A DNA stretch of 32,000 bases from Synechococcus elongatus PCC 6301 (GTDB taxonomy: Bacteria > Cyanobacteriota > Cyanobacteriia > Synechococcales > Synechococcaceae), in NCBI RefSeq assembly GCF_000010065.1, contig NC_006576.1:780001-812000 (forward strand), written 5' to 3'. Position numbers and translations under genes: made by a program. This document shows, piece after piece, positions 2,462-32,000 of this stretch (positions are counted from its first letter, which is position 1; each line of letters begins with the position of its first letter). The notes beneath the pieces were generated by a model that saw nothing but the letters and a program-made list of their open reading frames with translations, ran no database searches and was not told where the DNA came from.

Positions 2462-3802
2462 ATGAGTTTTGACTACGACCTCTTGGTGATTGGTGCCGGT
2501 TCTGGTGGGTTGGCAGCCTCAAAACGAGCTGCTAGCTATGGTGCCAAAGTTGCGATCGCAGAAACCGATTTGGTCGGGGGCACCTGCGTGATTCGTGGCT
2601 GTGTGCCGAAGAAGCTGATGGTCTATGCCTCCAGTTTTGCCAGTCAGTATCATTACGCCGAAGCCTATGGCTGGTCTGCTATACAGCCTCAATTCTCTTG
2701 GCCCAAATTGATTGCGGCCATCGATGCGGAAGTCAACCGCCTCAGTCGTCTACATATCAGCTTGCTCGAAAAAGCCGGTGTCGATCTCATTTTGGGCCAT
2801 GCCCAGTTTGTGGATGAGCATCGCTTGCAAGTGGGCGATCGCCAAGTGACGGCGGCAAAAATTTTGATTGCAGCGGGGGGCCGCCCCATCAAGCTGCCGA
2901 TTCCGGGCGGTGAGCTAGCGATTACCTCGCGGGAGATGTTTCATCTCCCCGAACAACCCCAGCGCTTTGCAGTCATTGGTGGTGGCTACATTGGTTGTGA
3001 GTTTGCGGGCATTCTGCGCAGCCTGGGCTCAGAAGTCACGCAAATTATTCGCCGCGATCGCATTTTGCAGGGCTTTGACCAAGAACTGCGGGAAGCGGTG
3101 CAAACCGGCATGAGCCAGCTCGGTGTTCAGTTCCGCACGGGCGTCACGGTCGAGCGGATCGATCAGACTGAAACGGGCTTACAACTGAGCTATAGCGACG
3201 GCAGCCAGCAAATCGTGGATCAAGTGCTGATGGCCACGGGGCGGGAACCTTGGCTGGAAGGCTTGGACCTAGACGCTGCCGGGGTTGCGATCGAGGGTCG
3301 TCGCATTGCGGTTGATGCTTGGAGTCGCACCAATCAGCCCCATATTTTTGCGGTGGGTGACTGCACCGATCGCGTTAACCTTACGCCGGTGGCGATCGCA
3401 GAAGGTCGGGCGTTTGCCGATACCGAATTTGGGCAAAAGCCGCGCCAAATCTCCTACGAGAATATTGCTTCAGCTGTTTTTAGCCAGCCAGAAGCCTGTA
3501 GTGTTGGCCTGAGCGAAGAAGCAGCCAAAGCGGAATACGGTGAGGAGCGCATTCGGGTTTATCGTAGTCGCTTCCGACCGATGTTTTACACCCTGCCTCA
3601 AGCGGAAGAACGGGTGTTGATGAAGCTAGTGGTTGAGACTGAGAGCGATCGCGTTCTGGGAGCGCACATGGTCGGCAAAGATGCGGCTGAAATCATTCAA
3701 AGTGTGGCGATCGCAGTGACGATGGGTGCGACGAAAGCTGATTTTGACGCCACGATGGCTTTGCATCCCACTTCAGCAGAGGAGTTCGTAACCATGCCCT
3801 AG
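2462..3802 (+). CDS. gor: Glutathione-disulfide reductase
   Basis: N-terminal FAD fold VIGAGSGG, redox-active GGTCVIRGCVPKK, second Rossmann GGGYIGCEFA, C-terminal HPTSAEEFVTM typical of GR rather than lipoamide dehydrogenase. Confidence 0.88.
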   Translation: MSFDYDLLVIGAGSGGLAASKRAASYGAKVAIAETDLVGGTCVIRGCVPKKLMVYASSFASQYHYAEAYGWSAIQPQFSWPKLIAAIDAEVNRLSRLHISLLEKAGVDLILGHAQFVDEHRLQVGDRQVTAAKILIAAGGRPIKLPIPGGELAITSREMFHLPEQPQRFAVIGGGYIGCEFAGILRSLGSEVTQIIRRDRILQGFDQELREAVQTGMSQLGVQFRTGVTVERIDQTETGLQLSYSDGSQQIVDQVLMATGREPWLEGLDLDAAGVAIEGRRIAVDAWSRTNQPHIFAVGDCTDRVNLTPVAIAEGRAFADTEFGQKPRQISYENIASAVFSQPEACSVGLSEEAAKAEYGEERIRVYRSRFRPMFYTLPQAEERVLMKLVVETESDRVLGAHMVGKDAAEIIQSVAIAVTMGATKADFDATMALHPTSAEEFVTMP

Positions 3803-3855: not shown

Positions 3856-5196
3856 CTAGGACCCGAGGAGTGCGGTACATTCCAGACGTTCTTGACTAGC
3901 ATCGCGGCGATCGCGGCGCCATTGAATTTGATCGGCAAGGTATTCAGCGTCTTGGCCGACCCCACAGAAACGGCCCGATCCCCAGGTGTGTAACCAAGGC
4001 AGGCCAATGAAGTACAGACCAGGTACTGGGGTGACACCGCGCTGATGAACCGGCAGCCCCGAACCATCAAACACCGGTACTTCGACCCAAGAAAAATCAC
4101 TGCGATAGCCCGTGCACCAAATCACGGCCGCAATCTCAGCGACTAGAAGTTGGGTTGAGGTTTGACTTTCGGTCGGCTGCCAGCAGGGTTGATAGGGCGG
4201 TTCTTCTGGCGCTTCTAGCTGATGCTGAGCAATGAAGTCATCGATGCTGCGGCGAATCCGACAGTAAACCGCATCTGCCGCATCCAAATGAGTAGCGAGG
4301 TTGTCCTCAAACTGAATGGCTTGGGAGGTCAGCGTAAACAAACGACCATGCAAGAGCAGACCCTCTTTGGCCCGTTGACGCAGGTCGATTTCCCGCCCCC
4401 CATCGCGCCCTGTCAGATAGTGATTGGTTTTGCGGCGAACACTGCGCGGATCTGCATGGGCATCGATCGGGGTGTCGTAGTAGCCCATTTGGTCGAGCCA
4501 GTCGACGACATCCCTGCCCCGATAGCGTCGTGGCGATCGCGGGGCAGAGCCCACACTCAGATGAACGGTTCGGCCGGCCAGGAACAAATCCTCAGCAATC
4601 TGACAGCCCGACTGACCACTGCCAACAACCAGTACCGCGCCTGGTGGGAGCTGTTCAGGATTGCGGTAGTCTCTTGCATCGATTTGGACAATTGACTCCG
4701 GCAAGCGAGCAGCTAACGGATGCCGTTTGGGTTCGTGATAAGCCCCTGTGGCAATAACCACCTGTTGCGCCCAGTACTCCCCTTCGTTGGTCAGCAGCTG
4801 AAAACCGCGATCGCACTGCTGCAGTCGTTGTACGGTGACCCCTTCCCGGATGGGCGCCCGACAGGTTTTCGCGAAGCGATGGAGGTAATCGACGATCGCC
4901 TGCCGGCCCATGAATCCTTCCGGTTCAGCACCGTCGTAGGGGAAGTCGGGCAGCCGACATTGCCAGTTAGGCGTGACCAAACAAAACGAGTCCCAACGCT
5001 GCTGATCCCAGGCAAAACCAATGCGATGCTTCTCCAACACTAAGGGCTGCAGACCCCGTTTCTGGAGGCAGTAGGCCATCGACAGACCGGCTTGCCCCGC
5101 CCCAATGACAATTGTGGAATGGCGATCGCGAACACTATCTCGAAGTCGGGCGGGTTCAGAGTTCTGCATGCGATCGCGGTCAACTAGGTAAAACAT
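3856..5196 (-). CDS. Flavin-dependent (FMO/CzcO-like) monooxygenase, Nit1C-associated (MSMEG_0569-type)
   Basis: Two dinucleotide folds are visible (VIGAGQAGLS and VVGSGQSGCQ). It is divergent from the nitrilase operon across a 197-bp AT-rich spacer. The start may be the internal MQNSEP at 5169. Confidence 0.85.
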   Translation of the reverse strand: MFYLVDRDRMQNSEPARLRDSVRDRHSTIVIGAGQAGLSMAYCLQKRGLQPLVLEKHRIGFAWDQQRWDSFCLVTPNWQCRLPDFPYDGAEPEGFMGRQAIVDYLHRFAKTCRAPIREGVTVQRLQQCDRGFQLLTNEGEYWAQQVVIATGAYHEPKRHPLAARLPESIVQIDARDYRNPEQLPPGAVLVVGSGQSGCQIAEDLFLAGRTVHLSVGSAPRSPRRYRGRDVVDWLDQMGYYDTPIDAHADPRSVRRKTNHYLTGRDGGREIDLRQRAKEGLLLHGRLFTLTSQAIQFEDNLATHLDAADAVYCRIRRSIDDFIAQHQLEAPEEPPYQPCWQPTESQTSTQLLVAEIAAVIWCTGYRSDFSWVEVPVFDGSGLPVHQRGVTPVPGLYFIGLPWLHTWGSGRFCGVGQDAEYLADQIQWRRDRRDASQERLECTALLGS

Positions 5197-5301
5197 CCCA
5201 ATTTAAATGTAATTATTCAGAACATATAAAACCGTATCAATCGCGACCGAAAGAAGATTATTCAATCCAGAATTAAGTCAGGTTAAACAGGCAATCATTT
5301 A

Positions 5302-5315
5302 GTAGTCACCGTTAC
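5302..5315. promoter_or_regulatory. Candidate NtcA binding site GTAGTCACCGTTAC (GTA-N8-TAC)
   Basis: This is a perfect match to the NtcA core palindrome, 79 nt upstream of ATG 5394, in the AT-rich divergent promoter. The hexamer 22 nt downstream is TAGTTA, which matches TAN3T only imperfectly. Confidence 0.35.
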
Positions 5316-5393
5316 AGTCATTCCTTAGAACTTGTTTTAGTTAATTGGTAGCTGTTTACACCAGCAGCCACCGTTCTAATTGCAGATTTTCCC

Positions 5394-5876
5394 ATGCCTG
5401 AAGTGACGAAGCCGGCCAATCAACCGGGTGATTTTCTGGTTGATTATGAAGAGAAAGTCTTTCCGGATGTCAAAGCAGAACCCGGTGAAAAAGCACTGAT
5501 CACATTTCACACAGTCGCCTTTGAAGGGTCGATCGGTCTCGTCAACCTTCTCCAAGCTAGCCGCCTAATTAACAAAGGCTTTGAAACATCCATCTTGCTC
5601 TATGGGCCTGGGGTCACTCTCGGGGTTCAGCGTGGCTTTCCCAAGTTGGGTGATGCAGCCTTTGATGGTCACTTGAACTTCAACGCTCGGATTCAAAAGT
5701 TCTTGGACCAAGGTGGCAAAGTCTACGCTTGCCGATTTGCCCTACAGGCGCTTTACGGTCATGGCGAAGGAGCTTTAATCCCGGGAATCCGTCCGATTAA
5801 TCCCCTGGATGCGATGGATCTGATCCTGATGCACCGCAAGGAAGGGGCTTTTATCCTCGACACTTGGACGCTCTAG
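5394..5876 (+). CDS. Sll0783/MSMEG_0572-family nitrogen-starvation response protein (DsrE-like fold suspected)
   Basis: 160 aa and first gene of the nitrilase operon. The [11 protein letters not shown] segment resembles the DsrE/DsrF-type conserved Cys loop. Position and size match the first gene of Nit1C cassettes. Confidence 0.75.
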
Positions 5877-5912
5877 TTCAAGTTGGTTTTTTAGGATTCT
5901 TAGGCAGAAGCG

Positions 5913-6917
5913 ATGGCCGATAAAATCATTGTGGCAGCTGCACAAATCCGACCTGTTCTATTCAGTTTGGAAGGATCTGTTGCTCGGGTTCTAGCGGCCA
6001 TGGCAGAAGCCGCAGCAGCGGGCGTTCAGCTGATTGTTTTCCCTGAAACCTTTCTGCCCTACTATCCTTATTTCTCCTTCGTCGAACCGCCGGTTCTGAT
6101 GGGGCGATCGCACCTCAAGCTCTACGAACAAGCCTTCACAATGACGGGGCCGGAACTCCAGCAAATTGCCAGGGCTGCTCGACAGCATCGTCTCTTTGTT
6201 TTGCTCGGCGTCAATGAGCGAGATGGCGGTAGTCTTTACAACACTCAGCTATTGATTAGCGATCAGGGTGACTTACTTCTGAAGCGCCGCAAAATCACCC
6301 CGACCTATCACGAACGGATGGTCTGGGGACAAGGCGGTGGCGCGGGCCTAACCGTTGTCGAAACGGTGCTGGGTAAGGTTGGGGCCTTGGCTTGCTGGGA
6401 GCACTACAACCCCTTAGCCCGCTTCAGTCTGATGACTCAGGGGGAGGAAATTCACTGCGCCCAATTCCCAGGATCGCTGGTGGGGCCAATTTTTAGCGAG
6501 CAAACCGCGGTCACACTGCGTCACCATGCCCTCGAAGCCGGTTGCTTTGTGCTCAGCTCGACGGCTTGGTTGGATCCGGCCGACTACGACACAATCACTC
6601 CCGATCGTAGTTTGCACAAAGCCTTTCAAGGGGGCTGTCACACCGCGATCATCAGTCCCGAAGGGCGCTATCTCGCAGGGCCACTGCCCGAGGGCGAAGG
6701 ACTCGCGATCGCTGAACTCGACAAAAGTTTGATCACCAAACGTAAGCGAATGATGGACAGCGTCGGTCACTATTCGCGCCCCGATTTACTCAGCCTTCGG
6801 ATCAATCGCAGCCCTGCCACACAAGTGCAAGCGATCGGTTCAGCTGCTGCCTTGCCAGAACTACCGAACCTAGAAGCCGCACCGGCTGAGACTGCGGAGG
6901 ACTATCTCCATGCCTAA
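5913..6917 (+). CDS. Nitrilase (Nit1C / Nit6803-type, carbon-nitrogen hydrolase superfamily)
   Basis: The Glu-Lys-Cys triad contexts are visible: [35 protein letters not shown]. Confidence 0.92.
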
Positions 6918-8007
6918 GTCAACGTCTCAGTCCTTAGGGGAGTTGGTGACGGAACTCCAAGTACAAGGGGTGATGGCTCCGGCGGTTAGAGGAAATCCTG
7001 GTCGCCAAGGCGGTGCAGGGCCTTCGGACCATCGGGCGATTACCCTCGAGGGCACAACAGTGATGGTGCCGGTTTACAACTCGACGGCGCAACAGTCGCC
7101 CTACCAGCTGACGACAACGGCGGATGGGGGTGTGGCTCTCCATCATCAAGGCGAGCTGACGACCACGCTGGAAACGCCGCCGGAACCCCATTTCTACAAC
7201 TTGCAGACTGCGGAAAGCATTCCCTACAAGGCGATCGCCCTCCTGCACGGCAAGGATGTGCTGGCCACGACGCTGCAACAGACCTGCATTCGCTTTCGCG
7301 ATCGCAGCGAGTCTTGCCAGTTCTGTGCGATCGAGCAGTCGCTGACCTCAGGCCAAACGATTGTTCGAAAGACGCCAGAGCAGGTCGCAGAAGTTGTGGC
7401 CGCAGCCGTTCGGCTGGATGGCGTTCGGCAACTGGTAATGACCACGGGCACGCCCAACAGTCGCGATCGCGGGGCTCGTCTGATGGCAGAAACAGCCGCA
7501 GCAGTGAAGGCAGTGGTGGACATACCGATTCAAGCCCAGTGTGAGCCACCGGATGATCCGGTCTGGTTCAGCCGAATGAAAGCTGCGGGTGTCAACAGTC
7601 TGGGCATGCATTTAGAAGTGGTGGAACCGGAGGTGCGTCGTCGCATCTTGCCGGGGAAATCGGAGCTGACCCTCGAGCATTACTACCGCGCCTTTGAGCA
7701 GGCCGTGGCCGTCTTCGGTCGCGGTGAAGTCTCGACTTACCTGCTAGCCGGACTCGGGGATAGCGCTGACAGCTTGATCGACTGCAGTCGGCGGCTGATT
7801 GCGATCGGCGTTTATCCATTCATCGTGCCGTTTGTGCCGATCGCGGGGACACCACTGGAACGTCATCCGGCTCCAACGACCGCTTTCATGCTGCAGATTT
7901 ACGAAGCCGTGGGAGCACTGCTCCATGATTCCGATCTGCGATCGGCGGCCATGTCTGCGGGCTGCGCCAAATGTGGCGCTTGTTCTGCCCTCTCGCTGTT
8001 CGAGTAG
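6910..8007 (+). CDS. Radical SAM-family protein (MSMEG_0568-type) with atypical Cys spacing
   Basis: ATG 6910 overlaps the nitrilase stop (6915-6917). Cys cluster C126-x9-C136-x2-C139 ([18 protein letters not shown]) plus C-terminal CAKCGAC. Its position matches the radical SAM member of Nit1C. Confidence 0.75.
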
Positions 8008-8055
8008 TCCCTGTCTCTTCTTATTTGTCTCATCGTCGTGATTTCGGGTATTGCG

Positions 8056-8688
8056 ATGTACTTCCTTGATCCCACTAGTCCCGAGCTGGGCCAGAGCCGC
8101 ACCTCCTTGCCAAACAGTTTTGTGCCCTCGGTGCGCTGGGGCATTGGCATTGATGCTGAAGACTTTCGACTGTCGCCAACGGCGAGTTCCGATCGCTTTT
8201 CTTTTCATCTGGCGCAGCCGCCTTCGCCGCTGCTGGCGGGCTACTGGGACCTGCGGCGACGCATTTTCTGCGAAGAGCAAGGGTTATTTAAAGACTCCGA
8301 TCGCGATGATCAAGACGCGATCGCCTATCCGATTGCAGCAGTTGCTCACACCGGTGATGCGGCCGGGCAGGTTGTCGGTGTGGTCCGCATTCTCGAATCC
8401 TCACCTCGGGTCTGGTACGGCGGTCGCTTGGGCGTGGATGCCGCTTTTCGTCGCCAAAACCAGATTGGCAAAGGTCTGATCTGGAAAGCTGTGACCACGG
8501 CAAATGCTTGGGGCTGCGATCGCTTTTTGGCAACGGTGCAAATTCAAAATGTTCGCTTCTTACAACGCTTGCACTGGCAGTCGCTGGATGAGTTGGAAAT
8601 TCGGGGCTTGGCCCATTATCTGATGGAAGCAGACCTCAACTACTACCAACCGGCCCGGATGCTCCGCCCCCGTCGTCAAGCCGCATGA
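8056..8688 (+). CDS. GNAT N-acetyltransferase (MSMEG_0567/Sll0786-type)
   Basis: Acetyl-CoA binding-type segment RLGVDAAFRRQNQIGKGLIWKAV, and WDLRRRIFCEEQGLF typical of this GNAT subfamily. The first ATG in the 8038 ORF is at 8056, so the start is uncertain. Confidence 0.72.
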   Translation: MYFLDPTSPELGQSRTSLPNSFVPSVRWGIGIDAEDFRLSPTASSDRFSFHLAQPPSPLLAGYWDLRRRIFCEEQGLFKDSDRDDQDAIAYPIAAVAHTGDAAGQVVGVVRILESSPRVWYGGRLGVDAAFRRQNQIGKGLIWKAVTTANAWGCDRFLATVQIQNVRFLQRLHWQSLDELEIRGLAHYLMEADLNYYQPARMLRPRRQAA

Positions 8689-9701
8689 GCGATGCTGCGA
8701 TTGCCCAAGATTTGGCTGCTCTCGCGGCTCAACTCCAAACCTTGGCAGGCTTGCAGGGCAAGCGCGATATTCAAGCAGCAGCAGCGAGTTTGCCCCATCG
8801 GCCCTTTCCCAAATTGGGACTAGCAGCAGCCTTGGGTGATGATGCGGCTCTGTTACCTGCGACTGCTAACCGCTTACTCTTCGCTTGCGAAGGAATTCAT
8901 CCCGACTTAGTGGCAGAAGATCCTTGGTTTGCTGGCTGGAGTGGTGTGCTGGTGAACCTCAGTGACATTGCCGCCATGGGTGGTCGTCCGATCGCGGTGG
9001 TCAATAGTCCCTGGAGCCGCGATCGCCAGCATGCTGATCAGGTGTTCGCCGGTCTTCAGTTTGCCGCCGAGAAATTTGGTATCCCGATCGTCGGGGGGCA
9101 CTCCAACCTCCAAAGCCCCTACAGCGCCCTGTCCGTGGCAGTCCTAGGTCAAGTGGGTCCCCACGTCCTCTCAGCGCGATCGGCCCAAGCCGGCGATCGT
9201 TGCTACCTGTTGATCAACCGTGACGGCCAGTTCTATCGCCACTATCCCTTTTGGGATGCCGCCACAGGGACAGCGCCGGAACAGCTGCGTCGCCACTGGG
9301 AACTGATGGCGCAGTTAGCCGATGCTGGCTTGGTTTCAGCGGCTAAGGATGTCAGTATGGGCGGCTTGATTGGTACCGCCGTGATGTTCGCCGAAACCAG
9401 CGGTGCGGGGCTTGATCTCCACCTCGATCGCCTCAGCTATCCAGCCGGAGTTAGTCGCGATCGCTGGTTGACCTGTTTTCCTAGCTTTGGCTTCCTCCTT
9501 GCCGTCCCTGAAGCTTGCTGCGATCGCTTCCTACAACGAGTCGCGACAGAACCAGATCTAACCTGTGATCACCTGGGTTCTTTCACTAACACGGGTCAAG
9601 TGCGCCTCTGCGATCGCCAAGCTCAAGTCTGTTTTTGGGACTGTCAAGAGCAGTCCTTGATGGGCTTTTCAGCGCTGACTGATCCTGAATCGCCACACTG
9701 A
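8685..9701 (+). CDS. AIR synthase (PurM/ThiL)-like ATP-binding protein (Sll0787-type)
   Basis: ATGA start/stop overlap with the GNAT gene. GDDAALLP and DIAAMGG motifs of the PurM superfamily are present. Confidence 0.82.
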   Translation: MSDAAIAQDLAALAAQLQTLAGLQGKRDIQAAAASLPHRPFPKLGLAAALGDDAALLPATANRLLFACEGIHPDLVAEDPWFAGWSGVLVNLSDIAAMGGRPIAVVNSPWSRDRQHADQVFAGLQFAAEKFGIPIVGGHSNLQSPYSALSVAVLGQVGPHVLSARSAQAGDRCYLLINRDGQFYRHYPFWDAATGTAPEQLRRHWELMAQLADAGLVSAAKDVSMGGLIGTAVMFAETSGAGLDLHLDRLSYPAGVSRDRWLTCFPSFGFLLAVPEACCDRFLQRVATEPDLTCDHLGSFTNTGQVRLCDRQAQVCFWDCQEQSLMGFSALTDPESPH

Positions 9702-9917
9702 ACAACACCCGCTCAGCTACCGATCTTTGGGAAGGGAGCGATCGCATTGCAAGTTAGGACATTGAGATTCGAACGACTCAGCCTCAAACCCGTAGCAATC
9801 GTGATTGAGTCCCTCGGTCTCACAAGAAATCTGGTTGCGGTAGGGCTGGAGGGATTCGATACCCAGCAATCTCAGAAATGGTCCTAATTTGCTTGCAGCC
9901 TACTTGATGCAATGGCT

Positions 9918-9961
9918 AAAAAAACTCCCCCGCCTGGTTCGCGCTGCCATCCGACGGGGGA
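9918..9961 (-). terminator. Intrinsic terminator-like hairpin followed by T7 (read on the minus strand), downstream of ruvB
   Basis: On the plus strand an A7 run (9918-9924) precedes TCCCCCG (9926-9932), which pairs with CGGGGGA (9955-9961); inner TGG/CCA pairs extend the stem. It lies about 118 nt past the ruvB stop. Confidence 0.5.
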
Positions 9962-10078
9962 CTCCCCTTTGTCCCTGGTGGAGGACCTTATGGGAGATTT
10001 CTACCTTCAGTTTGGCGCAGTTAGAGGGCACTGATCCCGAAGCGCAATTTAAATTCATGGGAGCGATCGCCCCCACTT

Positions 10079-11206
10079 TCATGTCTCCGGTTCAGTCAGC
10101 AGTTGCTGCAAAGTCAGCTGCCCACTCGCTTGTGGTGGCTCGTAACCCAAATGTCGCCAAGCTGCTGGCGTAGCCACTCGACCGGGAGGAGTTCGCTGCA
10201 AATAACCAATCTGGAGCAGATAGGGCTCGTAGACTTCCTCCACCGTCTGAGCATCCTCGCCGGTAGCCGCTGCTAAAGTCTCCAACCCGACCGGACCGCC
10301 GCCAAAGTTCTCGATCAAGTGGGACAATAGGCGGCGATCGGTCCAGTCTAGTCCGCAGGGATCAACGTTATAGAGCTCCAAAGCAGTGGCCGCGATCGCC
10401 CCGGTAATTGGCCCTGGTGCTTTGACAGCCGCATAGTCGCGCACCCGTCGTAGCAGGCGATTAGCAATTCGTGGGGTACCCCGCGATCGCTTAGCAATTT
10501 CCTCAGCTCCAGCCTGATCGAGCGGTGTATTCAGCAGACGCGCTGTGCGCTGGACAATATCCGTCAAAGCTTCGACCTCGTAAAAACGCAGCCGTTGCAC
10601 CAGACCAAAGCGATCGCGCAAGGGTGAGGTCAGAGCTCCAATCTGGGTGGTCGCGCCCACGAGGGTGAAAGGGTGCAACGTAATACTGGGGGTGCGGGCA
10701 CTCTGGCCCTTGCCGATGGTGATGTCGAGCCGAAAGTCCTCCATTGCTGGATAGAGAATTTCCTCCGTGACCTTGGGCAGACGATGAATTTCGTCGATGA
10801 ACAGCACATCACCCGGCTGCAGATTGACCAGCAAACCAACGATATCGCGGGGGCGTTCCAGCGCTGGTGCCGTGGTGATCCGACATTGCACGCCCATTTC
10901 CGTAGCCAGCACCAAGGCCATTGTCGTTTTACCTAAGCCTGGCGGCCCGTAGAGCAGCAAATGATCGAGGCTTTCTTGACGACTTTTGGCCGCTGCGATC
11001 GCAATTCCTAGCACATCCTTCAGCTCTGGCTGACCGATGTAATCCGCGAGTCGTTGCGGGCGGATTTGGTCTTCCGGTCGCTGACTCTCTTCGGGAGCAG
11101 CCTGCGGGCGAACCAGAGAATCCTGTGGTTCAGAAACAGAGGGCTTCGTTTTAGCCTGCGATCGCCGCTCGGCTGGGTCGGGAGATTTCGAAGAAACAAT
11201 CGCCAT
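10079..11206 (-). CDS. ruvB: Holliday junction branch migration DNA helicase RuvB
   Basis: [11 protein letters not shown], Walker [10 protein letters not shown], Walker [10 protein letters not shown], and the C-terminal winged-helix region are all typical of RuvB. The N-terminal extension is low complexity. Confidence 0.95.
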
Positions 11207-13756: not shown

Positions 13757-13869
13757 CGCAAGAGCATTCACAAACAAGACGGATAAATATCAGCATAAAC
13801 AAAGATGACCTTGCTGCACCAGAACCAGGCAAGGAGAGCTGAAAATAGTTATAGCCAGAGATCGGGAGC

Positions 13870-14100
13870 TCAACTTTAATGTTTGATGCTCGGCAGTTCT
13901 TCGCAGCCAAAAGAAAAGGCAAAACCAGTAAAGTTCAGATTGTTAATCTCTAAAAGCATCATTAATACAACAACATCATCATTAATAGAACTTTTAAAGT
14001 CTGACAAAAGTAATAATATTGCCTCAAAATCCAGACTAAATATTTTAATTGAAAACACATAAAAATTGAGAGTCATTGATGTTGTTCTCAAAATTTTCCA
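13870..14100. other. AT-rich orphan segment, roughly a quarter to a third GC by eye versus mid-50s around it
   Basis: I counted 15 G+C in 13981-14040 (25 percent). The only ORF is 13876..14091(-), 71 aa, Ile/Leu/Phe/Asn-rich with no recognisable similarity. There are no HIP1 sites. Confidence 0.6.
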
Positions 14101-14216
14101 TGCTGCATTGAGAAGCCATTACAGAGGAAAGGTGATGAGGGTGGCCTTAGAGGGATGGGTTGGCTGCAATAGGAGATGTTGCCTGTGCTGCAGCCATGGT
14201 TTGTCAACCCTAGCCC

Positions 14217-14703
14217 AGTGATTTGACCGAGGCAGAATGAACCTTGCTCGAACCGATCTTGCCGTCGGCAAATCCCCTTGGCTCTCCGCGCACGGTGGAA
14301 ATCCGAGAAGTCGTCAATGTCTGGATGTACATCGCGGAGAACGGCATCCAGTGGAGATCTCTACTTCATGACTTTCCAGCGTGGCAAACCGTCTATGGCG
14401 ACTTCTTCCGCTGGCGGCGCTTAGAGATCGGGGAACAGGCTAATCACACCCTGAGTCGCCAAGTGTGACTGGAACTCGGACGGGAGGGAGCACTGTGTTT
14501 GGGATTGATGGATAGCCAGTCTGGATCTAACAAAACGGTTGAGCCAAGGATTCAGCGTTGAGCCCAAGCGCTGGCTGATCGAGTGAACCTTTACTGGGCT
14601 CGACAATGCGCGGCGACTCTGCCGTGATTATGAAGAGCTCCCCGAACACCATGAGTGTTTCATCTACTTGGTAATGCGTCGCCTGCTGCTGAGAAAACTC
14701 ACC
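14217..14703 (+). pseudogene. Decayed, internally deleted IS5-family (DUF4096 + DDE_Tnp_1 type) transposase
   Basis: N-terminal similarity: SDLTEAE*TLLEPILP...PRTVEIREVVN...IQWRSLLHDFPAWQTVYGDFFRWRR. Then LMDSQS. Then, in a different frame, KRWLIE*TFTGLDNARRLCRDYEELPEHHECFIYLVMRRLLLRKLT. There are in-frame TGA codons at 14238 and 14466 and another inside the C-terminal block. The DDE core between the two blocks is missing. Confidence 0.72.
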
Positions 14704-14862
14704 CTCAATCGACGCTGCCGCCCATCTCCCCGAAAACAGCTTCTTAATTGCTTTAGTCGCTCTTGGCTGCCTTTTTTTAGTTAGTTTGAGGGTGCCTAGG
14801 CGATCGCCCTAGGCTTAATTCCATACATTTCCGCCTCACACCACTCACGGGGTCGAATCTTA

Positions 14863-20972: not shown

Positions 20973-22679
20973 TCAGTCATTAGCTCGGAAGTAATCGAGC
21001 CAGCGATCGCCAGAATCTGCTCGAACCAAGGTGACTACTAGGCTCGGGATAGCAGCCAAGTTGGGATAGACAAAGTAGCGTGGCTGCCAGTCGGGATGGA
21101 ACTTCTCTTTGAAGCTGTGCAGTCCTTGAAAGCGATAGAAGCGATCGAGGTGGCGATAGAGGTAATCTAAGCCCTGTTCCACTTGATTCGGTTGATCGAG
21201 TTGATCCAAACCAGAAAGAGCCGAGAGTCCTAAGCTGAAGCTATCAAAGCCTCGATCCTTAGCAGCCAAAATCGTATTGACAAGTAAAAACTCCATCGTG
21301 CTGCTTTCAGCACTGGGCAAAAAGCGAATTAAATCGAGCGTCAGTTCATTGCGCTGAAATTCTTCAACCCAGTTGGCAAACGCTTGAATTTGGCCATCCT
21401 GCGATCGCACGACAGCAATGCTGCCACTGGTGAGGTAATCGCGATCAAACCAGCCTACCGAAAAGCGTTTTTCTGGCCCTTTCATCCGCTTCAGCCACGT
21501 ATCGCTGACGAAACGCAATTCAGGTAGCAAGGGGTATATTTCTGCGGCTGGAATCACCTCAAAGCGGTAGCCAGCTCGTTCCAAACGACTGAGGGTACTG
21601 CGGAAGCCCCGCCCTCGTTTGCCCTGTAGGCTAAAGTCTTGCAGAGGGATGACGGCTTCTTGACCAATTTGATCCGAGGCTAGGCCCTGACGCTGATAGA
21701 GCGGCAAGTCATCGGGTAGAACCTGATAGAACGCAGGCAACCAATCGTTCTGCTGACATTCCCGCAAAAACTGCTGAATGATCGCCTCGCGATCGCGGGC
21801 AGGACCAATTGGATCACCCAAGGCGATCGCTCCCCGCCCCCGTTGCACAAACGCAATCAGACTCTCACCGCTGGGACTAAAGCAGTAGGATTTGTCCTCC
21901 AGCAACGTCAACCGCGCCAGAGAGGTATGGCCATGGGCCCGCACGATCGCGGTCGCCTGCCGTCGTTCTGTCACCGTCGCCGGTGGTTGCCAAACAGGTT
22001 GTAGCAATAACAAAAAGGCATAGCCAAGCGTCAGTAGCCCGACGCTAAAAATTGATTCCGCAAACAGTTGACCAAACCGTGTTTGGGGCAATGCCACACG
22101 GGCATCCCAGCTAAAAAATAGCTGCAACACCTGTTGAAGAGCCGTGAATAGATCGAAGTCGCGGGAGTAGTGGCGATCGAGCCAAAACGGCCCCAAGGTG
22201 CCGTAGGCCAAACTGAACAGCAGCGCCCCCAACAGTACCCGCACCGCTCGCACCCGCGACGGCGCATCCGAGCGCGCGATGTAGATCTTGCGATCGCCGA
22301 CCAAGCAACCCAGCAAGATCAGGTCGAGAGCAATCAAAGCTGGATGGTGGGCTCGCACGCCTTTGAGGGCAACCGAGAGACTTAAAAGCAGCACCGTCAG
22401 CAGCCAAGCGACCTGCTTGCGGCGCAATAGCTGATTGGCTAGGGTCAGCAAAATAAAGCCAATGACAGCTCCAGCGACTCGCCCTTGCGTTTCAACGGTC
22501 AAAGTAGCCAGTTGTCCTAGCCAGCGCGATCGCTCAGGCAGATGCGGCAACACTGCCACGAGTAAATTCAGGCTGCCCGCGATCGCCGTCAGCACAGCAA
22601 TCCAACGCACTCGCACAGCGGGCGATCGCAGCCCTGCGATCGGTGGGAAATGTTTAATTTGGGACCACACGATAGTCAT
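20973..22679 (-). CDS. MprF-like aminoacyl-phosphatidylglycerol synthase (TM domain + DUF2156/LysX-type domain)
   Basis: About 270 aa of hydrophobic helices are followed by a soluble domain (SYCFSPSGESLIAFVQRGRGAIALGDPIGP...) of the DUF2156 type. The ATG at 22679 overlaps the upstream gene end by 26 nt. Confidence 0.7.
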   Translation of the reverse strand: MTIVWSQIKHFPPIAGLRSPAVRVRWIAVLTAIAGSLNLLVAVLPHLPERSRWLGQLATLTVETQGRVAGAVIGFILLTLANQLLRRKQVAWLLTVLLLSLSVALKGVRAHHPALIALDLILLGCLVGDRKIYIARSDAPSRVRAVRVLLGALLFSLAYGTLGPFWLDRHYSRDFDLFTALQQVLQLFFSWDARVALPQTRFGQLFAESIFSVGLLTLGYAFLLLLQPVWQPPATVTERRQATAIVRAHGHTSLARLTLLEDKSYCFSPSGESLIAFVQRGRGAIALGDPIGPARDREAIIQQFLRECQQNDWLPAFYQVLPDDLPLYQRQGLASDQIGQEAVIPLQDFSLQGKRGRGFRSTLSRLERAGYRFEVIPAAEIYPLLPELRFVSDTWLKRMKGPEKRFSVGWFDRDYLTSGSIAVVRSQDGQIQAFANWVEEFQRNELTLDLIRFLPSAESSTMEFLLVNTILAAKDRGFDSFSLGLSALSGLDQLDQPNQVEQGLDYLYRHLDRFYRFQGLHSFKEKFHPDWQPRYFVYPNLAAIPSLVVTLVRADSGDRWLDYFRAND

Positions 22680-23700
22680 CCAGCAAAATTCGCAGACAGC
22701 CAACCGTCGGTACTGCCAAGATCACACCCAGTAAACCGCCGAGCTGCGCCCCAATCAAAATAGCCATCAGCACCCAAACGGGGTGAACCCCAATTGACTT
22801 GCCAAACAGGCGTGGCGCAATCAGGTTTTCAATCAGCTGATCGGTGCCCCAGCAGAACACCAAGATTCGGAAGCCCAGCCAAGGATTGCTGAACATCTGC
22901 ACGATCGCCAAGCTCACAATGCTGATACTGCCACCAAACGGAAAGATCGCCAGTAGGCCAATGCCGCAGCCCAGCAACAGCCAAAAGCGCAGACCCAGCA
23001 ATAACAAAACAATGGTTGCCGAGCTGCCGATCAAAAAGGCGATCGTCATCTGGCTAAGCAAATAGTTGCGGAAACTCAGCTCCAAGGCCGATCGCGCCCG
23101 CGATCGCCAACGTACAGGCAACCAGTTGTAGAGTCCATCCCAAACTTCATCGCCGCGTAGCAATAAATAGAAGCTGATCACCAAGGTCAGCATCGTTTGC
23201 AAAGCACCACTCGCCACTCCCAAGAGCAATTCCAGCAAGCGGCTCGTCAAAGCCTGCAGCTGTTCCGACAGGCGGCTCACGACTGTGCCTAACACCGCTC
23301 GCAGATCCAAGGGAATCCGGCTAAAGAAGGGGTGTTGTTCGAGCAACTGAAACTGCTGAAAGCCATCATTGAGCGATCGCGGCAGCGTATTGGCCAAGGC
23401 AGAGACCTGGTTGATCAAAATCGGCAAGAGCGTCACCGTCACTAGCAGCAGCAGGACAACAATCACCGCCAAAATAATCAGCACCGCCAGCAGACGCGGT
23501 ACCCGCCAGCGCTCTAGGGCCCGCACCGGCAGCCCAAGGATGAACGAGAGCAATGCTGCTGAGAGAAAAATCGAAATGGGGCCACGAAAGTAATCCCAAA
23601 TCAGCAGCACACACCAAGCATTGAGCAGAATAGCGGGCAGCCAAAGAAGCGGTTGGAGGGTCGCAATGATGTATTTCAGGCGCCGCTGCCAGCTCATCAC
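22654..23700 (-). CDS. AI-2E family transporter (PerM/UPF0118)
   Basis: A polytopic membrane protein of 348 aa with the typical AI-2E layout and a C-terminal P..V....I..A...G..G..LAVP motif region. Confidence 0.82.
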   Translation of the reverse strand: MMSWQRRLKYIIATLQPLLWLPAILLNAWCVLLIWDYFRGPISIFLSAALLSFILGLPVRALERWRVPRLLAVLIILAVIVVLLLLVTVTLLPILINQVSALANTLPRSLNDGFQQFQLLEQHPFFSRIPLDLRAVLGTVVSRLSEQLQALTSRLLELLLGVASGALQTMLTLVISFYLLLRGDEVWDGLYNWLPVRWRSRARSALELSFRNYLLSQMTIAFLIGSSATIVLLLLGLRFWLLLGCGIGLLAIFPFGGSISIVSLAIVQMFSNPWLGFRILVFCWGTDQLIENLIAPRLFGKSIGVHPVWVLMAILIGAQLGGLLGVILAVPTVGCLRILLDDYRVVPN

Positions 23701-23778
23701 ATTCGGGGAAAAAGGCTCTCAGCATCGTACCCTTCCCCTCTGCCGATGTAATCGTTGTCCGTAGCGCGTCGCGATCGC

Positions 23779-24804
23779 CTAGTAGCGAATTCGGGGGTCA
23801 ATCAGGGCGTTGATGAAATCGACCACGATGCTGGCTAGCACCACCAAACAACCAAAGAAAACGATGATGCCCTGCACCGTCGAATAGTCTCGCAGGGAGA
23901 TTGCTTCGTAGAGTCGGTTGGCCAGCCCCGGCCAAGAGAAGGCGACTTCCGTCAGCAGAGCACCGCCCAGTAGGGAGGCCAGGGTGAGTCCTAGCAGGGT
24001 CACGACTGGAATCAGAGCATTGCGCAGGGCGTGATTGAGCAACAGCCGCCGTTCTGATAGGCCCCGCGATCGCCCGGCATCGATGTAGTCTGCTTGGAGC
24101 GACTGCCCCAGATTGACCCGCACCAGCCGTTCAAACACACCACTCAGTAAGAGACCGAGCGTCAGGGCTGGGAGGGCTAAATAACGCAGCGCCAAACCCG
24201 CTGCCCGCCAGTCGGCCTTGAGCAACGCATCGAGCACATACAGGCCGGTCGGTCCTAGGGGCGGATCGAGGGTGACGGGGTAGCGAGTGCCGACCGGGAA
24301 CCAGCCGAGATCGACGGCAAACAGGAGTTGCGCCAGCATCGCTGCCCAGAAGGTCGGCAGAGCGTAGGTCAAAATCCCAAACAGGCGACTGGCCGTTTCG
24401 CGCCGACTGTTGGGTTTCGCCGCAGCCATCAGCCCAAGTCCCAGACCAATTGCGATCGCGATCGCTAAGCTGGCAATCGCGAGTTCCGCTGTCGCCGGGA
24501 AATATTCGCCGATGATCTGGCGTACGGACTGACCTTGGCTACTAAGAGATTGCCCGAGATCGCCTTTGAGCAGTTGACCGAGATAGTCGAAATATTGCTG
24601 CCAGAGCGGGCGATCGAGCCCGAGTTGCGATCGCAGGGCTAGGCGAGCTGCCGCCGGTGCTTTCGGCCCCAAAATCGCATCGATCGGATCGCCGGGCGTC
24701 GCCCGCAGCAACAGGAAGATCAACGTCGCGATCGTCCAGAGCATCAGGGGCAGCAACAATAGTCGCGCCAGCAGGTAGCGGCCCAAATCCCTAGCGCGCG
24801 ACAT
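23779..24804 (-). CDS. ABC transporter permease (DppB/OppB-type)
   Basis: N-terminal LLRATPGDPIDAILGP and an EAA-loop region (DYIDAGRSRGLSERRLLLNHALRNALIPV). It overlaps the upstream SBP gene by 14 nt. Confidence 0.9.
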   Translation of the reverse strand: MSRARDLGRYLLARLLLLPLMLWTIATLIFLLLRATPGDPIDAILGPKAPAAARLALRSQLGLDRPLWQQYFDYLGQLLKGDLGQSLSSQGQSVRQIIGEYFPATAELAIASLAIAIAIGLGLGLMAAAKPNSRRETASRLFGILTYALPTFWAAMLAQLLFAVDLGWFPVGTRYPVTLDPPLGPTGLYVLDALLKADWRAAGLALRYLALPALTLGLLLSGVFERLVRVNLGQSLQADYIDAGRSRGLSERRLLLNHALRNALIPVVTLLGLTLASLLGGALLTEVAFSWPGLANRLYEAISLRDYSTVQGIIVFFGCLVVLASIVVDFINALIDPRIRY

Positions 24805-31766: not shown

Positions 31767-32000
31767 CTAACAAGTTGTGGTGGCTCGCTCCGCCACGGCC
31801 ACCGCTTCACTCTGGGGGGCGCTGCCGCTACTCACCCAAACAATGCGACCAATCCGTCGCCGCTGGGCAAAGGCCTGCACCACTTCTGGCCGGCGATCGC
31901 TGTCGAGGTAGAGCTCCACTCGCAGCTGGTCCTGACGCTGCAGACGCTGGGCTTCGGCCAAAGCAGCCCCATAAGCCTCGGAATCAACGGGAATCACCAG
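31767..32000 (-). CDS. 3' end of a gene continuing beyond the window; class II aaRS-like (HisS/HisZ-type) C-terminal domain suspected
   Basis: The frame is open to the window edge. LVIPVDSEAYGAALAEAQRL...VELYL...RRRIGRIVWV resembles an anticodon-binding-like alpha/beta domain. This is a weak call. Confidence 0.3.
   Translation of the reverse strand: MVIPVDSEAYGAALAEAQRLQRQDQLRVELYLDSDRRPEVVQAFAQRRRIGRIVWVSSGSAPQSEAVAVAERATTTC

What the first reader, a model, noticed from the sequence alone, without database searches (positions are those of the whole stretch)
3856..9701. Complete Nit1C-type nitrilase / radical SAM / GNAT / AIR-synthase-like / flavin monooxygenase cassette of unresolved function
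Five tightly packed plus-strand genes sit opposite a divergent FMO-type flavoprotein. In order they are an Sll0783-like DsrE-fold protein, a nitrilase with a visible E-K-C triad, a radical SAM enzyme, a GNAT and a PurM-like ATP-binding enzyme. The start at 6910 overlaps the nitrilase stop, and an ATGA overlap occurs at 8685, so the genes appear translationally coupled. From memory, this gene set is the conserved Nit1C / nitrogen-starvation-response cluster. It was named from nitrilase comparative genomics. Sll0783 in Synechocystis is N-starvation induced and linked to PHB accumulation, and the pseudomonad version is needed for cyanide assimilation. To my knowledge the physiological substrate, the product, and the reactions of the radical SAM, AIR-synthase-like, GNAT and FMO members are not established. 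The enzyme mix covers radical chemistry, ATP-dependent carbonyl activation, acyl transfer, N- or S-oxygenation and nitrile hydrolysis. That argues for a dedicated small-molecule (nitrile or cyanide-adduct) synthesis or salvage pathway rather than generic detoxification.
Basis: partly seen in the sequence, partly recalled or inferred. Interest (0 to 1): 0.8.

Follow-up and report, generated by a model that had tools for sequence, protein, structure and literature searches.

The report
Known Nit1C nitrilase cluster, minus nitG
This is the already catalogued nitrogen-starvation "Nit1C" nitrilase gene cluster of the model cyanobacterium Synechococcus elongatus; the genes are real and intact, but the cluster has six of the usual seven genes, and its chemistry is a 20-year-old open question rather than a new discovery.

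Summary
All six ORFs exist at the stated coordinates, and each scores above the curated NCBIfam cutoff for its Nit1C family. The two start/stop overlaps are in the sequence. The window is 99.8% identical to Synechococcus elongatus PCC 7942. There the nitrilase gene is Synpcc7942_0839, and published data place it in the NtcA/PipX nitrogen regulon (PMC11420160).

"Complete" is wrong. Canonical Nit1C has seven genes. The small nitG (MSMEG_0570 family) follows nitF in 77 of 80 related picocyanobacterial loci. It is absent from all 32 kb here and from the same position in a second S. elongatus lineage.

New details:
- A perfect NtcA box and a one-mismatch box sit in the divergent promoter.
- NitB has a DsrE fold with one invariant cysteine and about 92% identity to picocyanobacterial homologs.
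- NitD has a variant Cx9Cx2C radical-SAM motif and five further invariant cysteines. Its nearest solved folds are lipoyl and biotin synthases.
- NitH lacks the FMO signature motif.

I found no published pathway. Best reading: an NtcA-activated nitrogen-scavenging module that ends in nitrilase-catalysed ammonia release, possibly working through thiol or sulfur chemistry. Known kind; moderate-to-low interest.

The parts
3856..5196 (-). nitH: MSMEG_0569-family two-Rossmann flavin oxidoreductase, transcribed divergently. The true start is probably Met10 at 5169.
   Evidence: TIGR04046 654 bits against a 498 cutoff; next best hits are ArsO at 129 bits and YpdA at 54 bits. Pfam Pyr_redox_3. GxGxxG at residues 32 and 192; no FxGxxxHxxx[YF] motif in 0 of 66 homologs. 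67% mean identity to picocyanobacterial NitH.
5197..5393 (.). 197-bp divergent promoter spacer, AT-rich relative to its surroundings.
   Evidence: GC is 0.48 for 5001-6000 against about 0.57 on either side; sequence read. Synechocystis ChIP-seq shows two overlapping NtcA peaks in the equivalent bidirectional sll0783 promoter (PMC5714215).
5302..5315 (+). Perfect NtcA box GTAGTCACCGTTAC, 79 bp upstream of the nitB ATG. TAGTTA lies 22 nt downstream as a candidate -10 element.
   Evidence: One of only 2 GTAN8TAC matches in 32 kb. NtcA-like boxes with at most 1 mismatch lie within 160 bp upstream of nitB in 92% of 65 related loci, against 24% of random windows and 48% of shuffled sequences.
5234..5247 (-). 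Second NtcA-type box, reading GTCGCGATTGATAC on the minus strand (one mismatch), then N22, then TACATT (5211 to 5206). Candidate nitH promoter.
   Evidence: The architecture GTAN8TAC-N22-TAN3T is the established NtcA class II layout (my knowledge). Function is inferred, not shown.
5394..5876 (+). nitB: MSMEG_0572/Sll0783-family protein with a DsrE fold and a single invariant cysteine, C113.
   Evidence: TIGR04044 276 bits against a 110 cutoff. No Pfam hit. AlphaFold2 pLDDT 83. Foldseek top 15 hits are all DsrE, YchN or Tus proteins. 92% mean identity to picocyanobacterial NitB. C113 invariant in 68 sequences. Only 314 representatives at E<=1e-3 among 1.84 billion proteins.
5862..5883 (+). Terminator-like hairpin with a U-run, straddling the nitB stop codon; possible attenuator between nitB and nitC.
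   Evidence: Predicted free energy -13.1 kcal/mol, z-score -2.2. Function not tested.
5913..6917 (+). nitC: Nit6803-family nitrilase with catalytic residues E45, K127, E134 and C161.
   Evidence: TIGR04048 543 bits against a 503 cutoff. PDB 3WUY E=2.8e-138. Residues checked. Protein identical to the PCC 7942 product.
6910..8007 (+). nitD: MSMEG_0568-family radical SAM enzyme. Variant cluster motif C126-x9-C136-x2-C139, plus invariant C211, C292 and C352-x2-C355-x2-C358.
   Evidence: TIGR04043 571 bits against a 304 cutoff; variant_rSAM NF045502 188 bits; LipS2 E=1e-11. All eight Cys invariant in 72 sequences. No canonical CxxxCxxC. AlphaFold2 pTM 0.82. Foldseek top hits are lipoyl synthases, then biotin synthase, HydE, NifB and ThiH. 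Start overlaps the nitC stop by 8 nt.
8038..8688 (+). nitE: MSMEG_0567/Sll0786-family GNAT. The probable start is ATG 8056, giving 210 aa.
   Evidence: TIGR04045 229 bits against a 68 cutoff; Pfam Acetyltransf_1. Conservation begins at Met7, and PCC 7942 calls a 210-aa product.
8685..9701 (+). nitF: sll0787-family AIR-synthase-like (PurM superfamily) ATP enzyme.
   Evidence: TIGR04049 463 bits against a 321 cutoff; next best is methanogenesis marker 2 at 205 bits, followed by ThiL, SelD and PurL. AIRS and AIRS_C domains. GDDA at residue 51. ATGA overlap with nitE. The GNAT and AIRS-like domains are fused in M. smegmatis MSMEG_0567, as implied by the family models TIGR04045 and TIGR04050.
9702..10078 (.). 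Non-coding spacer between nitF and convergent ruvB, where nitG sits in relatives. No nitG and no recognisable remnant.
   Evidence: No TIGR04042 hit for any small ORF here. A NitG profile and tblastn against the six-frame window found nothing at E<1. A 1-bp indel between S. elongatus lineages shifts the frame of the variably called 88/123/141-aa ORF.

Best explanation
WHAT IT IS (shown). This is the Synechococcus elongatus copy of the conserved Nit1C / 'nitrogen starvation response' cluster. The layout is nitH (divergent) plus nitB-nitC-nitD-nitE-nitF. In PCC 7942 nitC is Synpcc7942_0839 and nitB is 0840; the rest of the 0836-0841 numbering is inferred by adjacency. It is a natural six-gene version that lacks nitG.

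HOW IT IS SWITCHED ON (boxes shown; binding inferred, with literature support). Under nitrogen limitation, NtcA with PipX binds two boxes in the 197-bp divergent spacer. This drives nitH leftwards and nitBCDEF rightwards. Gaps of 0-48 nt and two start/stop overlaps couple the rightward genes.

WHAT IT DOES (inferred). The only demonstrated chemistry in the family is NitC hydrolysing a nitrile to a carboxylate plus ammonia. I take the cassette to be a nitrogen-scavenging module whose output is ammonium. The other five proteins make or present the real nitrile substrate to the nitrilase.

Folds and invariant residues point to thiol or sulfur-centred chemistry rather than plain small-molecule tailoring:
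- NitB is a DsrE-fold carrier with one invariant cysteine.
- NitD is a radical SAM enzyme resembling lipoyl and biotin synthases, with enough extra cysteines for a second Fe-S cluster.
- NitE and NitF form a GNAT plus PurM-type ATP-dependent O-activating pair. The PurM superfamily includes HypE, which dehydrates a Cys-bound carboxamide to Cys-S-CN (my knowledge).
- NitH is an NAD(P)H flavoprotein nearest to ArsO and YpdA types.

The physiological substrate is most likely cyanide-derived or another scarce nitrile.
For: Identity:
- Six curated equivalog-level models all score above cutoff.
- The order and strands match the published cyanobacterial nitHBCDEF(G) layout and 65 of 65 sufficiently long related loci.
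- 99.8% DNA identity to PCC 7942.

Regulation:
- A perfect NtcA box at 5302-5315 and a one-mismatch box with N22-TACATT on the other strand.
- NtcA-like boxes upstream of nitB in 92% of related loci, against 24% and 48% in controls.
- Synpcc7942_0839/0840 are in the NtcA-2 iModulon and the predicted NtcA-PipX regulon (PMC11420160).
- NtcA ChIP peaks at the Synechocystis sll0783 bidirectional promoter (PMC5714215).
- GlnR induces the M. smegmatis cluster more than 500-fold (PMC6039565).

Nitrogen-scavenging output:
- nitA, nitB and nitC mutants of P. pseudoalcaligenes cannot grow on cyanide or aliphatic nitriles (PMC5939895).
- NitC homologs are true nitrilases in vitro (PMC7815647).
- The catalytic tetrad is intact here.

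Sulfur or thiol flavour:
- NitB has a DsrE fold and invariant C113.
- NitD's nearest folds are LipA and BioB, and it has eight invariant Cys.
- NitF belongs to the PurM family.

Still functional:
- The six proteins keep 55-92% identity to picocyanobacterial orthologs with no frameshifts.
- A fitness phenotype is reported for 0840.
Against: - No substrate, intermediate or product is known for any member except NitC, and NitC's catalytic efficiency on all tested nitriles is poor (PMC7815647).
- The two best-documented non-Pseudomonas phenotypes concern the NADPH/NADP ratio, PHB and peroxide resistance, not nitrogen supply (PMC6039565, PMC3901256). That fits a redox or biosynthetic role at least as well.
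- The nitB mutant phenotype in Pseudomonas could be a polar effect on nitC.
- The sulfur-relay idea rests on fold resemblance only. TM-scores for NitD are modest (0.44-0.61), and the radical-SAM TIM barrel is generic.
- I could not verify from coordinates that C113 occupies the DsrE/TusD active-site position.
- NtcA binding at these boxes is not shown for S. elongatus.
- The loss of nitG might mean the pathway is altered or crippled here.
Confidence: 0.55

Rival explanations
1. Biosynthetic or redox-homeostasis pathway. The cassette makes a small, possibly sulfur-containing metabolite or cofactor during nitrogen starvation, and this shifts the NADPH/NADP balance. On this view the nitrilase is a tailoring step, and ammonia release is incidental.
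For: - M. smegmatis gpr (MSMEG_0565-0572) raises the NADPH:NADP ratio and confers peroxide resistance.
- The Synechocystis sll0783 mutant has a low NADPH pool and poor PHB accumulation (PMC3901256).
- Jones et al. relay NCBI's 'possible biosynthetic function' note and propose a metabolon built on nitrilase filaments.
- The enzyme mix (radical SAM, GNAT, ATP-dependent activation, flavoprotein) is typical of biosynthesis.
- NitB's extreme conservation suits a carrier or scaffold that contacts several partners.
Against: - No product has been seen in 20 years.
- The cluster is controlled by nitrogen regulators in three phyla and is required for growth on cyanide or nitriles in Pseudomonas, which a cofactor role does not obviously explain.
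- The NADPH effects may be indirect.
Confidence: 0.28
2. Amine-to-nitrile nitrogen salvage. NitH N-oxygenates a primary amine or amino acid to an oxime. NitE or NitF then activates the oxime oxygen by acetylation or phosphorylation for dehydration to a nitrile. NitC releases the nitrogen as ammonia.
For: - NitH has a weak Lys/Orn N-hydroxylase-family Pfam hit (PF13434).
- The pairing of GNAT and flavoprotein recalls hydroxamate pathways, and PurM-type enzymes activate carbonyl or amide oxygens with ATP (my knowledge).
- The nitE/nitF overlap here and their fusion in actinobacteria (models TIGR04045 and TIGR04050) suggest the two act consecutively.
Against: - NitH lacks the FMO and N-hydroxylase signature motif, and its best secondary matches are ArsO and YpdA types.
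- The scheme leaves NitB and NitD without a role.
- It is an energetically expensive way to deaminate.
Confidence: 0.1
3. Decaying remnant. After losing nitG, the S. elongatus cluster is non-functional or on its way out.
For: - nitG is absent, although it follows nitF in 77 of 80 relatives.
- S. elongatus has a small, streamlined genome.
Against: - All six ORFs are full length and above the strict family cutoffs.
- Catalytic and cluster-binding residues are intact.
- The NtcA box is perfect.
- Two S. elongatus lineages 1% apart in DNA keep every gene intact.
- Co-regulation and a fitness phenotype are published.
- Two picocyanobacterial loci also lack nitG after nitF.
- nitG could be encoded elsewhere in the genome; this was not testable here.
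Confidence: 0.05

Closest known systems
Nit1C cluster of marine and freshwater picocyanobacteria (nitHBCDEFG; Synechococcus WH8102, Cyanobium, Prochlorococcus HLII)
   Same: Same six families in the same order and on the same strands, with nitH divergent (65 of 65 loci). NtcA-like boxes lie upstream of nitB. Protein identity ranges from 55% (NitF) to 92% (NitB).
   Different: These clusters carry nitG directly after nitF in 77 of 80 loci. The window has a 377-bp non-coding spacer there, followed by ruvB. S. elongatus also has a hairpin with a U-run between nitB and nitC, where relatives have a gap of 0-18 bp.
Synechocystis sp. PCC 6803 sll0783-sll0787 (Nit6803 nitrilase, PDB 3WUY)
   Same: NitC aligns to 3WUY at E=2.8e-138 with the same catalytic residues. 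The sll0783 promoter is NtcA-bound and bidirectional. The cluster is induced by nitrogen starvation.
   Different: Synechocystis is reported to have all seven genes (PMC1199592). Its documented phenotype (PHB and NADPH) has not been tested in S. elongatus.
Pseudomonas nitA + nitBCDEFGH (P. pseudoalcaligenes CECT5344, P. fluorescens NCIMB 11764)
   Same: Same protein families. The cluster is induced under nitrogen limitation and is genetically required for growth on cyanide or nitriles.
   Different: nitH is the last gene on the same strand. The regulator is the sigma-54 activator NitA rather than NtcA. nitG is present.
Mycobacterium smegmatis gpr (MSMEG_0565-0572)
   Same: Namesake of the family models that hit here. 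It is nitrogen-starvation induced through GlnR.
   Different: It has eight ORFs, including a glycosyltransferase and a second CN-hydrolase, and the GNAT and AIRS-like domains are fused. The phenotype described is peroxide resistance and a raised NADPH ratio.
Sulfur-inserting radical SAM enzymes (LipA, BioB) with DsrE/TusBCD sulfur-relay proteins, and the HypE thiocyanate-forming step (analogy only)
   Same: NitD's best structural matches are LipA and BioB, and it has extra invariant cysteines. NitB has the DsrE/TusD fold. NitF shares the PurM superfamily with HypE.
   Different: No sequence-level membership: LipS2 scores 45 bits against a 270 cutoff. The cysteine motifs differ from those of LipA and BioB. 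No sulfur donor or acceptor is known. This is a resemblance, not a classification.

Membership tests
Nit1C gene cluster (Podar et al. 2005) | Nit6803-type subfamily 1 nitrilase (TIGR04048) | tested here: met
   543 bits against a 502.6 cutoff; PDB 3WUY E=2.8e-138.
Nit1C gene cluster (Podar et al. 2005) | ORF1/NitB, a 160-163 aa Sll0783-family protein, immediately upstream of the nitrilase | tested here: met
   160 aa; TIGR04044 276 bits against a 110 cutoff; 36-bp gap to nitC.
Nit1C gene cluster (Podar et al. 2005) | Radical SAM, GNAT and AIR-synthase-like genes follow the nitrilase in that order on the same strand | tested here: met
   TIGR04043, TIGR04045 and TIGR04049 all score above cutoff. 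Coordinates; overlaps.
Nit1C gene cluster (Podar et al. 2005) | ORF6/NitG, a small protein of about 100 aa (MSMEG_0570 family, TIGR04042), 'the last invariant position' | tested here: not met
   No hit for any small ORF near the cluster. The profile HMM (best E=1.9, 4.7 bits) and tblastn on the six-frame 32-kb window gave noise only. It is also absent in PCC 7942 and in a second lineage at this position. Whether it is encoded elsewhere in the genome could not be tested (one search was inconclusive).
Nit1C gene cluster (Podar et al. 2005) | Flavoprotein ORF7/NitH at one end; in cyanobacteria, divergent at the start | tested here: met
   TIGR04046 654 bits against a 498 cutoff; on the minus strand, 197 bp from nitB.
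Nit1C gene cluster (Podar et al. 2005) | Control by the host's nitrogen-starvation regulator | tested here: inconclusive
   A perfect NtcA box and a second one-mismatch box are present, and published iModulon and regulon data cover 0839 and 0840. No binding or expression data were generated here.
Nitrilase superfamily branch 1 (true nitrilases) | Glu-Lys-Cys triad plus a second Glu | tested here: met
   E45, K127, C161 and E134, aligned to 3WUY and matching the Nit11764 numbering offset by one (PMC7815647).
Radical SAM superfamily | Canonical CxxxCxxC [4Fe-4S] motif | tested here: not met
   No CxxxCxxC is present. Instead C126-x9-C136-x2-C139 is invariant in 72 sequences. This agrees with the NCBIfam 'variant_rSAM' hit at 188 bits against a 125 cutoff, and Pfam Radical_SAM still scores above its cutoff. 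NitD is therefore a member with a variant motif, as known for some other radical SAM enzymes.
Radical SAM superfamily | Partial TIM-barrel fold | tested here: met
   AlphaFold2 pTM 0.82. 72 PDB matches at E<=1e-3, and the top 47 are all radical SAM enzymes.
Lipoyl/biotin synthase-type sulfur insertases | Family-level sequence match and the known auxiliary-cluster ligand motifs | tested here: not met
   LipS2 scores 45 bits against a 270 cutoff. The cysteine pattern differs from those of LipA and BioB (my knowledge). The link is structural resemblance only.
DsrE/DsrF/YchN/TusD-like family | Fold | tested here: met
   The top 15 Foldseek hits all belong to this family, with probability 1.0 and target-normalised TM-score 0.55-0.85.
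DsrE/DsrF/YchN/TusD-like family | Active-site cysteine at the position of DsrE/TusD Cys78 | tested here: inconclusive
   The invariant C113 sits at the end of strand 109-113, just before helix 114-121. That is the expected type of position, but no residue-level superposition was available.
PurM / AIR-synthase-related superfamily | AIRS N- and C-terminal domains with the N-terminal Asp-rich ATP/Mg motif | tested here: met
   PF00586 and PF02769; GDDA at residue 51.
Class B flavin monooxygenase (FMO) | Two GxGxxG dinucleotide motifs | tested here: met
   Residues 32 and 192.
Class B flavin monooxygenase (FMO) | FMO-identifying motif FxGxxxHxxx(Y/F) | tested here: not met
   Absent in NitH and in 0 of 66 homologs, even in relaxed form. 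The PF00743 hit is marginal and covers only residues 173-215.

The most novel reading that the evidence does not exclude
Nit1C could be a protein-thiol-based system for capturing cyanide or a C1-N unit. In this reading:
- The near-invariant Cys113 of the DsrE-fold NitB, or a small thiol it serves, is activated by NitH and by the two-cluster radical SAM enzyme NitD.
- The activated thiol is converted to an S-cyano (thiocyanate-type) adduct. NitE and NitF carry out a HypE-like ATP-dependent step.
- The filament-forming nitrilase hydrolyses this thiol-bound nitrile to ammonia and CO2.

This would explain the poor activity of NitC on free nitriles. It would also link the cyanide-assimilation phenotype with the NADPH and peroxide phenotypes.

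S. elongatus would then be a natural nitG-less minimal system, showing that six genes suffice.
Probability: 0.08. Interest if true: 0.85.

Novelty: already known. Interest (0 to 1): 0.3.

Why it matters
Nit1C is one of the more conspicuous "known unknowns" of bacterial nitrogen metabolism. It is a tightly conserved cluster found across cyanobacteria, proteobacteria, actinobacteria and verrucomicrobia. The nitrogen-starvation regulator switches it on in each phylum studied. It is abundant in low-nitrogen ocean picocyanobacteria and essential for bacterial growth on cyanide. Yet it has no known substrate or product.

This window adds no new system. It does place an intact, NtcA-boxed, naturally nitG-less version in one of the most tractable cyanobacterial models, which has natural competence, RB-TnSeq libraries and iModulon data.

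The structural pointers sharpen what to test:
- NitB has a DsrE fold with a single invariant cysteine.
- NitD is a LipA/BioB-like radical SAM enzyme with a Cx9Cx2C motif and a probable second cluster.
- NitH lacks the FMO signature.

Solving the pathway would matter for marine nitrogen budgets and for cyanide bioremediation.

Tried and rejected
1. nitG hidden as a small ORF. Eight small ORFs around the cluster were scanned against NCBIfam at E<=1 with no hit.

2. nitG elsewhere in the window or decayed. A profile HMM built from picocyanobacterial NitG sequences (77 loci had a hit), run with --max, and tblastn against all six frames gave only noise. A pile-up of weak tblastn hits at 31911-31991 has a negative profile score and was rejected.

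3. The 88-aa ORF at 9907-10173 as a non-homologous stand-in for NitG. Rejected for four reasons: it has no family hit; it overlaps ruvB by 95 nt; its called length varies (88, 123 or 141 aa); and a 1-bp indel between lineages shifts its frame.

4. nitG elsewhere in the S. elongatus genome. A profile search of the 5.8-billion-protein database gave 913 hits, and none of the 120 listed is named S. elongatus. This is inconclusive.

5. Exact-sequence look-ups of NitF and AsnS were not on record, because this strain differs slightly from PCC 7942. The nitrilase look-up succeeded.

6. The perfect GTAN8TAC motif as a conserved feature. Only 3 of 65 relatives have a perfect box. The signal appears only when one mismatch is allowed, and the related loci are not independent samples.

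7. Rfam found no RNA family anywhere in the window.

9. The iModulon supplements are not held, so membership of 0836-0838 and 0841 in the NtcA-2 iModulon could not be checked.

10. Nine literature searches for a solved pathway found none.

Full report
OBSERVATION.
- NitH, 3856-5196(-): TIGR04046, 654 bits against 498.
- NitB, 5394-5876: TIGR04044, 276 against 110.
- NitC, 5913-6917: TIGR04048, 543 against 503.
- NitD, 6910-8007: TIGR04043, 571 against 304.
- NitE, 8038-8688: TIGR04045, 229 against 68.
- NitF, 8685-9701: TIGR04049, 463 against 321.

Pfam gives the expected superfamilies: CN_hydrolase, Radical_SAM, Acetyltransf_1, AIRS with AIRS_C, and Pyr_redox_3. It gives nothing for NitB. Both overlaps are in the sequence: ATGCCTAA at 6910-6917 and ATGA at 8685-8688. 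The nitrilase aligns to Nit6803 (PDB 3WUY) at E=2.8e-138 and has E45, K127, E134 and C161.

WHERE IT COMES FROM. The nitrilase protein is identical to the one encoded on CP000100.1, the Synechococcus elongatus PCC 7942 chromosome. The window is 99.8% identical to that record over 16.9 kb. The flanking genes are housekeeping genes: gor, ruvB, a Raf1 RuBisCO chaperone, asnS and cobW. So this is an annotated locus of a heavily used model organism. A 2024 study names Synpcc7942_0839 as the nitrilase. It places 0839 and 0840 in the NtcA-2 iModulon and the predicted NtcA-PipX regulon, and reports fitness effects for 0840 on glutamine and under nitrate stress (PMC11420160). By adjacency the six genes are 0841 (nitH) down to 0836 (nitF); that numbering is inference.

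Nit1C was defined as seven genes. The sixth is a protein of about 100 aa that the authors called the last invariant position (PMC1199592). In picocyanobacteria the operon is written nitHBCDEFG. I fetched 80 related loci using NitF as the query.
- All 65 loci with enough flank show nitH(-) followed by nitBCDEF(+).
- 77 of the 80 carry an MSMEG_0570-family gene directly after nitF.
- Of the other three, one contig is truncated and two genuinely lack nitG there.

In the window, nitF is followed by 377 bp and then convergent ruvB.
- No small ORF there matches TIGR04042.
- A NitG profile with all filters off and tblastn over all six frames of the 32 kb found nothing better than E about 2.
- PCC 7942 itself, three other assemblies about 99.8% identical to the window, and a lineage 1% divergent in DNA all have the same nitF-ruvB junction.
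- The ORF that some gene callers place in the spacer changes length between strains because of a 1-bp indel, so it is not coding.

REGULATORY ANATOMY. The 197-bp divergent spacer is AT-rich. It holds one of only two perfect GTA-N8-TAC matches in the window, at 5302-5315, 79 bp before the nitB ATG. On the other strand it holds GTCGCGATTGATAC-N22-TACATT, the classical NtcA class II layout with one mismatch, pointing at nitH. That -10 element lies within 10 nt of the ATG at 5196. For this reason nitH more likely starts at Met10.

Allowing one mismatch, NtcA-like boxes lie within 160 bp upstream of nitB in 92% of 65 related loci. The comparison figures are 24% of random windows and 48% of shuffled upstream regions, and the boxes fall at two recurrent positions. 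The loci are phylogenetically related, so this is supportive evidence, not a probability. In Synechocystis, ChIP-seq found two overlapping NtcA peaks in the bidirectional sll0783 promoter. A hairpin with a U-run straddles the nitB stop codon (5862-5883; -13.1 kcal/mol, z-score -2.2). It is absent in relatives and might set a NitB excess. No Rfam family is present.

PROTEIN-LEVEL CLUES.

NitB. It averages 92% identity between S. elongatus and picocyanobacteria, against 55% for NitF. Across 1.84 billion representative proteins the family has only 314 members at E<=1e-3 and no detectable outside relatives. The AlphaFold2 model (pLDDT 83) matches DsrE, DsrF, YchN, DsrEFH and TusBCD structures exclusively in the top 15 hits. 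NitB has one cysteine, C113, invariant in 68 cyanobacterial sequences, located at a strand-helix junction.

NitD. It lacks the canonical CxxxCxxC motif. Instead it has C126-x9-C136-x2-C139, plus C211, C292 and a C-terminal C352-x2-C355-x2-C358. All eight cysteines are invariant in 72 sequences. The model (pTM 0.82) is closest to lipoyl synthases, then biotin synthase, HydE, NifB, ThiH, PylB and HydG. This agrees with a weak LipS2 profile hit. The TM-scores are modest, so this is a lead rather than a classification.

NitF. It is a PurM-superfamily protein with the GDDA motif. Its nearest other family is methanogenesis marker 2.

NitH. It has two GxGxxG motifs but no FMO signature motif in any of 66 homologs. 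Its next-best families are ArsO and YpdA types.

WHAT IT MOST LIKELY DOES. Three things are shown:
- The family's nitrilases hydrolyse nitriles in vitro, but inefficiently (PMC7815647).
- nitA, nitB and nitC mutants of P. pseudoalcaligenes cannot use cyanide or aliphatic nitriles.
- The cluster is under the nitrogen-starvation regulator in cyanobacteria, mycobacteria and pseudomonads.

From these I infer an NtcA-activated nitrogen-scavenging module whose output is ammonium from a nitrile. The other five proteins generate or present the true substrate.

The DsrE-fold cysteine protein, the LipA/BioB-like multi-cysteine radical SAM enzyme, the PurM-type ATP enzyme and an ArsO/YpdA-like flavoprotein together suggest that the substrate chemistry is thiol- or sulfur-centred. 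HypE, a member of the PurM superfamily, makes a Cys-bound thiocyanate (my knowledge). This last step is speculative.

The main rival is a biosynthetic or redox role. It is supported by the NADPH/NADP, PHB and peroxide phenotypes in Synechocystis and M. smegmatis. A decaying-remnant reading is unlikely, given intact genes in two lineages, intact motifs and published co-regulation.

NOVELTY AND SCORE. The cluster was described in 2005. It has curated family models, and at least nitC and nitB have been placed in the S. elongatus nitrogen regulon in print. However, that library omits most subscription journals. The finding is therefore correct but already known.

Three small additions have value: the natural six-gene (nitG-less) state in a tractable model, the NtcA box geometry, and the structural pointers for NitB, NitD and NitH. 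Interest is 0.3. The most novel reading that the evidence does not exclude is a protein-thiol-bound nitrile pathway. I give it about 8% probability, and it would be very interesting if true.

Noticed in passing
window 5862-5883 (+): A terminator-like hairpin with a U-run straddles the nitB stop codon, inside the 36-bp nitB-nitC gap (-13.1 kcal/mol, z-score -2.2). The two picocyanobacterial loci I examined for this (L005, L011) have gaps of only 0-18 bp here. It may be an attenuator that gives NitB excess over the downstream enzymes.
   Followed up: partly
window 8038-8056: The nitE start is more likely ATG 8056 (210 aa, as called in PCC 7942) than GTG 8038. Conservation with 75 homologs begins at Met7. 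About 45 residues N-terminal to the GNAT domain are conserved and match no model.
   Followed up: partly
window 5169-5247 (-): The NtcA-type promoter for nitH puts its -10 element (5211 to 5206) within 10 nt of the ATG at 5196. The real nitH start is therefore probably Met10 (5169). The family model begins aligning only at residue 27.
   Followed up: partly
L076 (about 8970-9217) and L077 (about 8557-8999): Two picocyanobacterial MAG loci also have no nitG after nitF. In L076 a different ORF, rich in CxxCGxCC, follows instead. nitG is therefore near-invariant, not absolute.
   Followed up: partly
window 2462-3802 (+): The glutathione reductase gene (gor; TIGR01424, 625 bits) converges on nitH with only a 53-bp gap. 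gor was not seen at this position in the one picocyanobacterial locus I looked at (L005). The adjacency is probably coincidental, but it is notable given the redox phenotypes reported for the cluster.
   Followed up: no
window 13778-14862: A gap of about 1.1 kb has no long ORF. The PCC 7942 record calls a 74-aa DUF4096 (transposase-fragment) ORF here, which suggests an IS remnant.
   Followed up: no
window 20973-23700 (-): AT skew is strongly positive (+0.27 to +0.32) over 22001-24000. This coincides with minus-strand membrane-protein genes: an MprF-like protein that matches only the C-terminal synthase part of MprF (positions 325-840 of the 841-position model), and an overlapping AI-2E-family transporter ORF.
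   Followed up: no
NitD residues 40-88 (window about 7027-7173): The model shows a small all-beta N-terminal domain ahead of the radical-SAM barrel. It is highly conserved (the invariant run [10 protein letters not shown] lies just before it) and has no Pfam annotation. It may be a substrate- or partner-binding module.
   Followed up: no
PMC6039565 (M. smegmatis gpr): The authors propose that UGA read-through creates an 818-aa selenoprotein fusing the nitrilase-like and flavoprotein ORFs.
   Followed up: no
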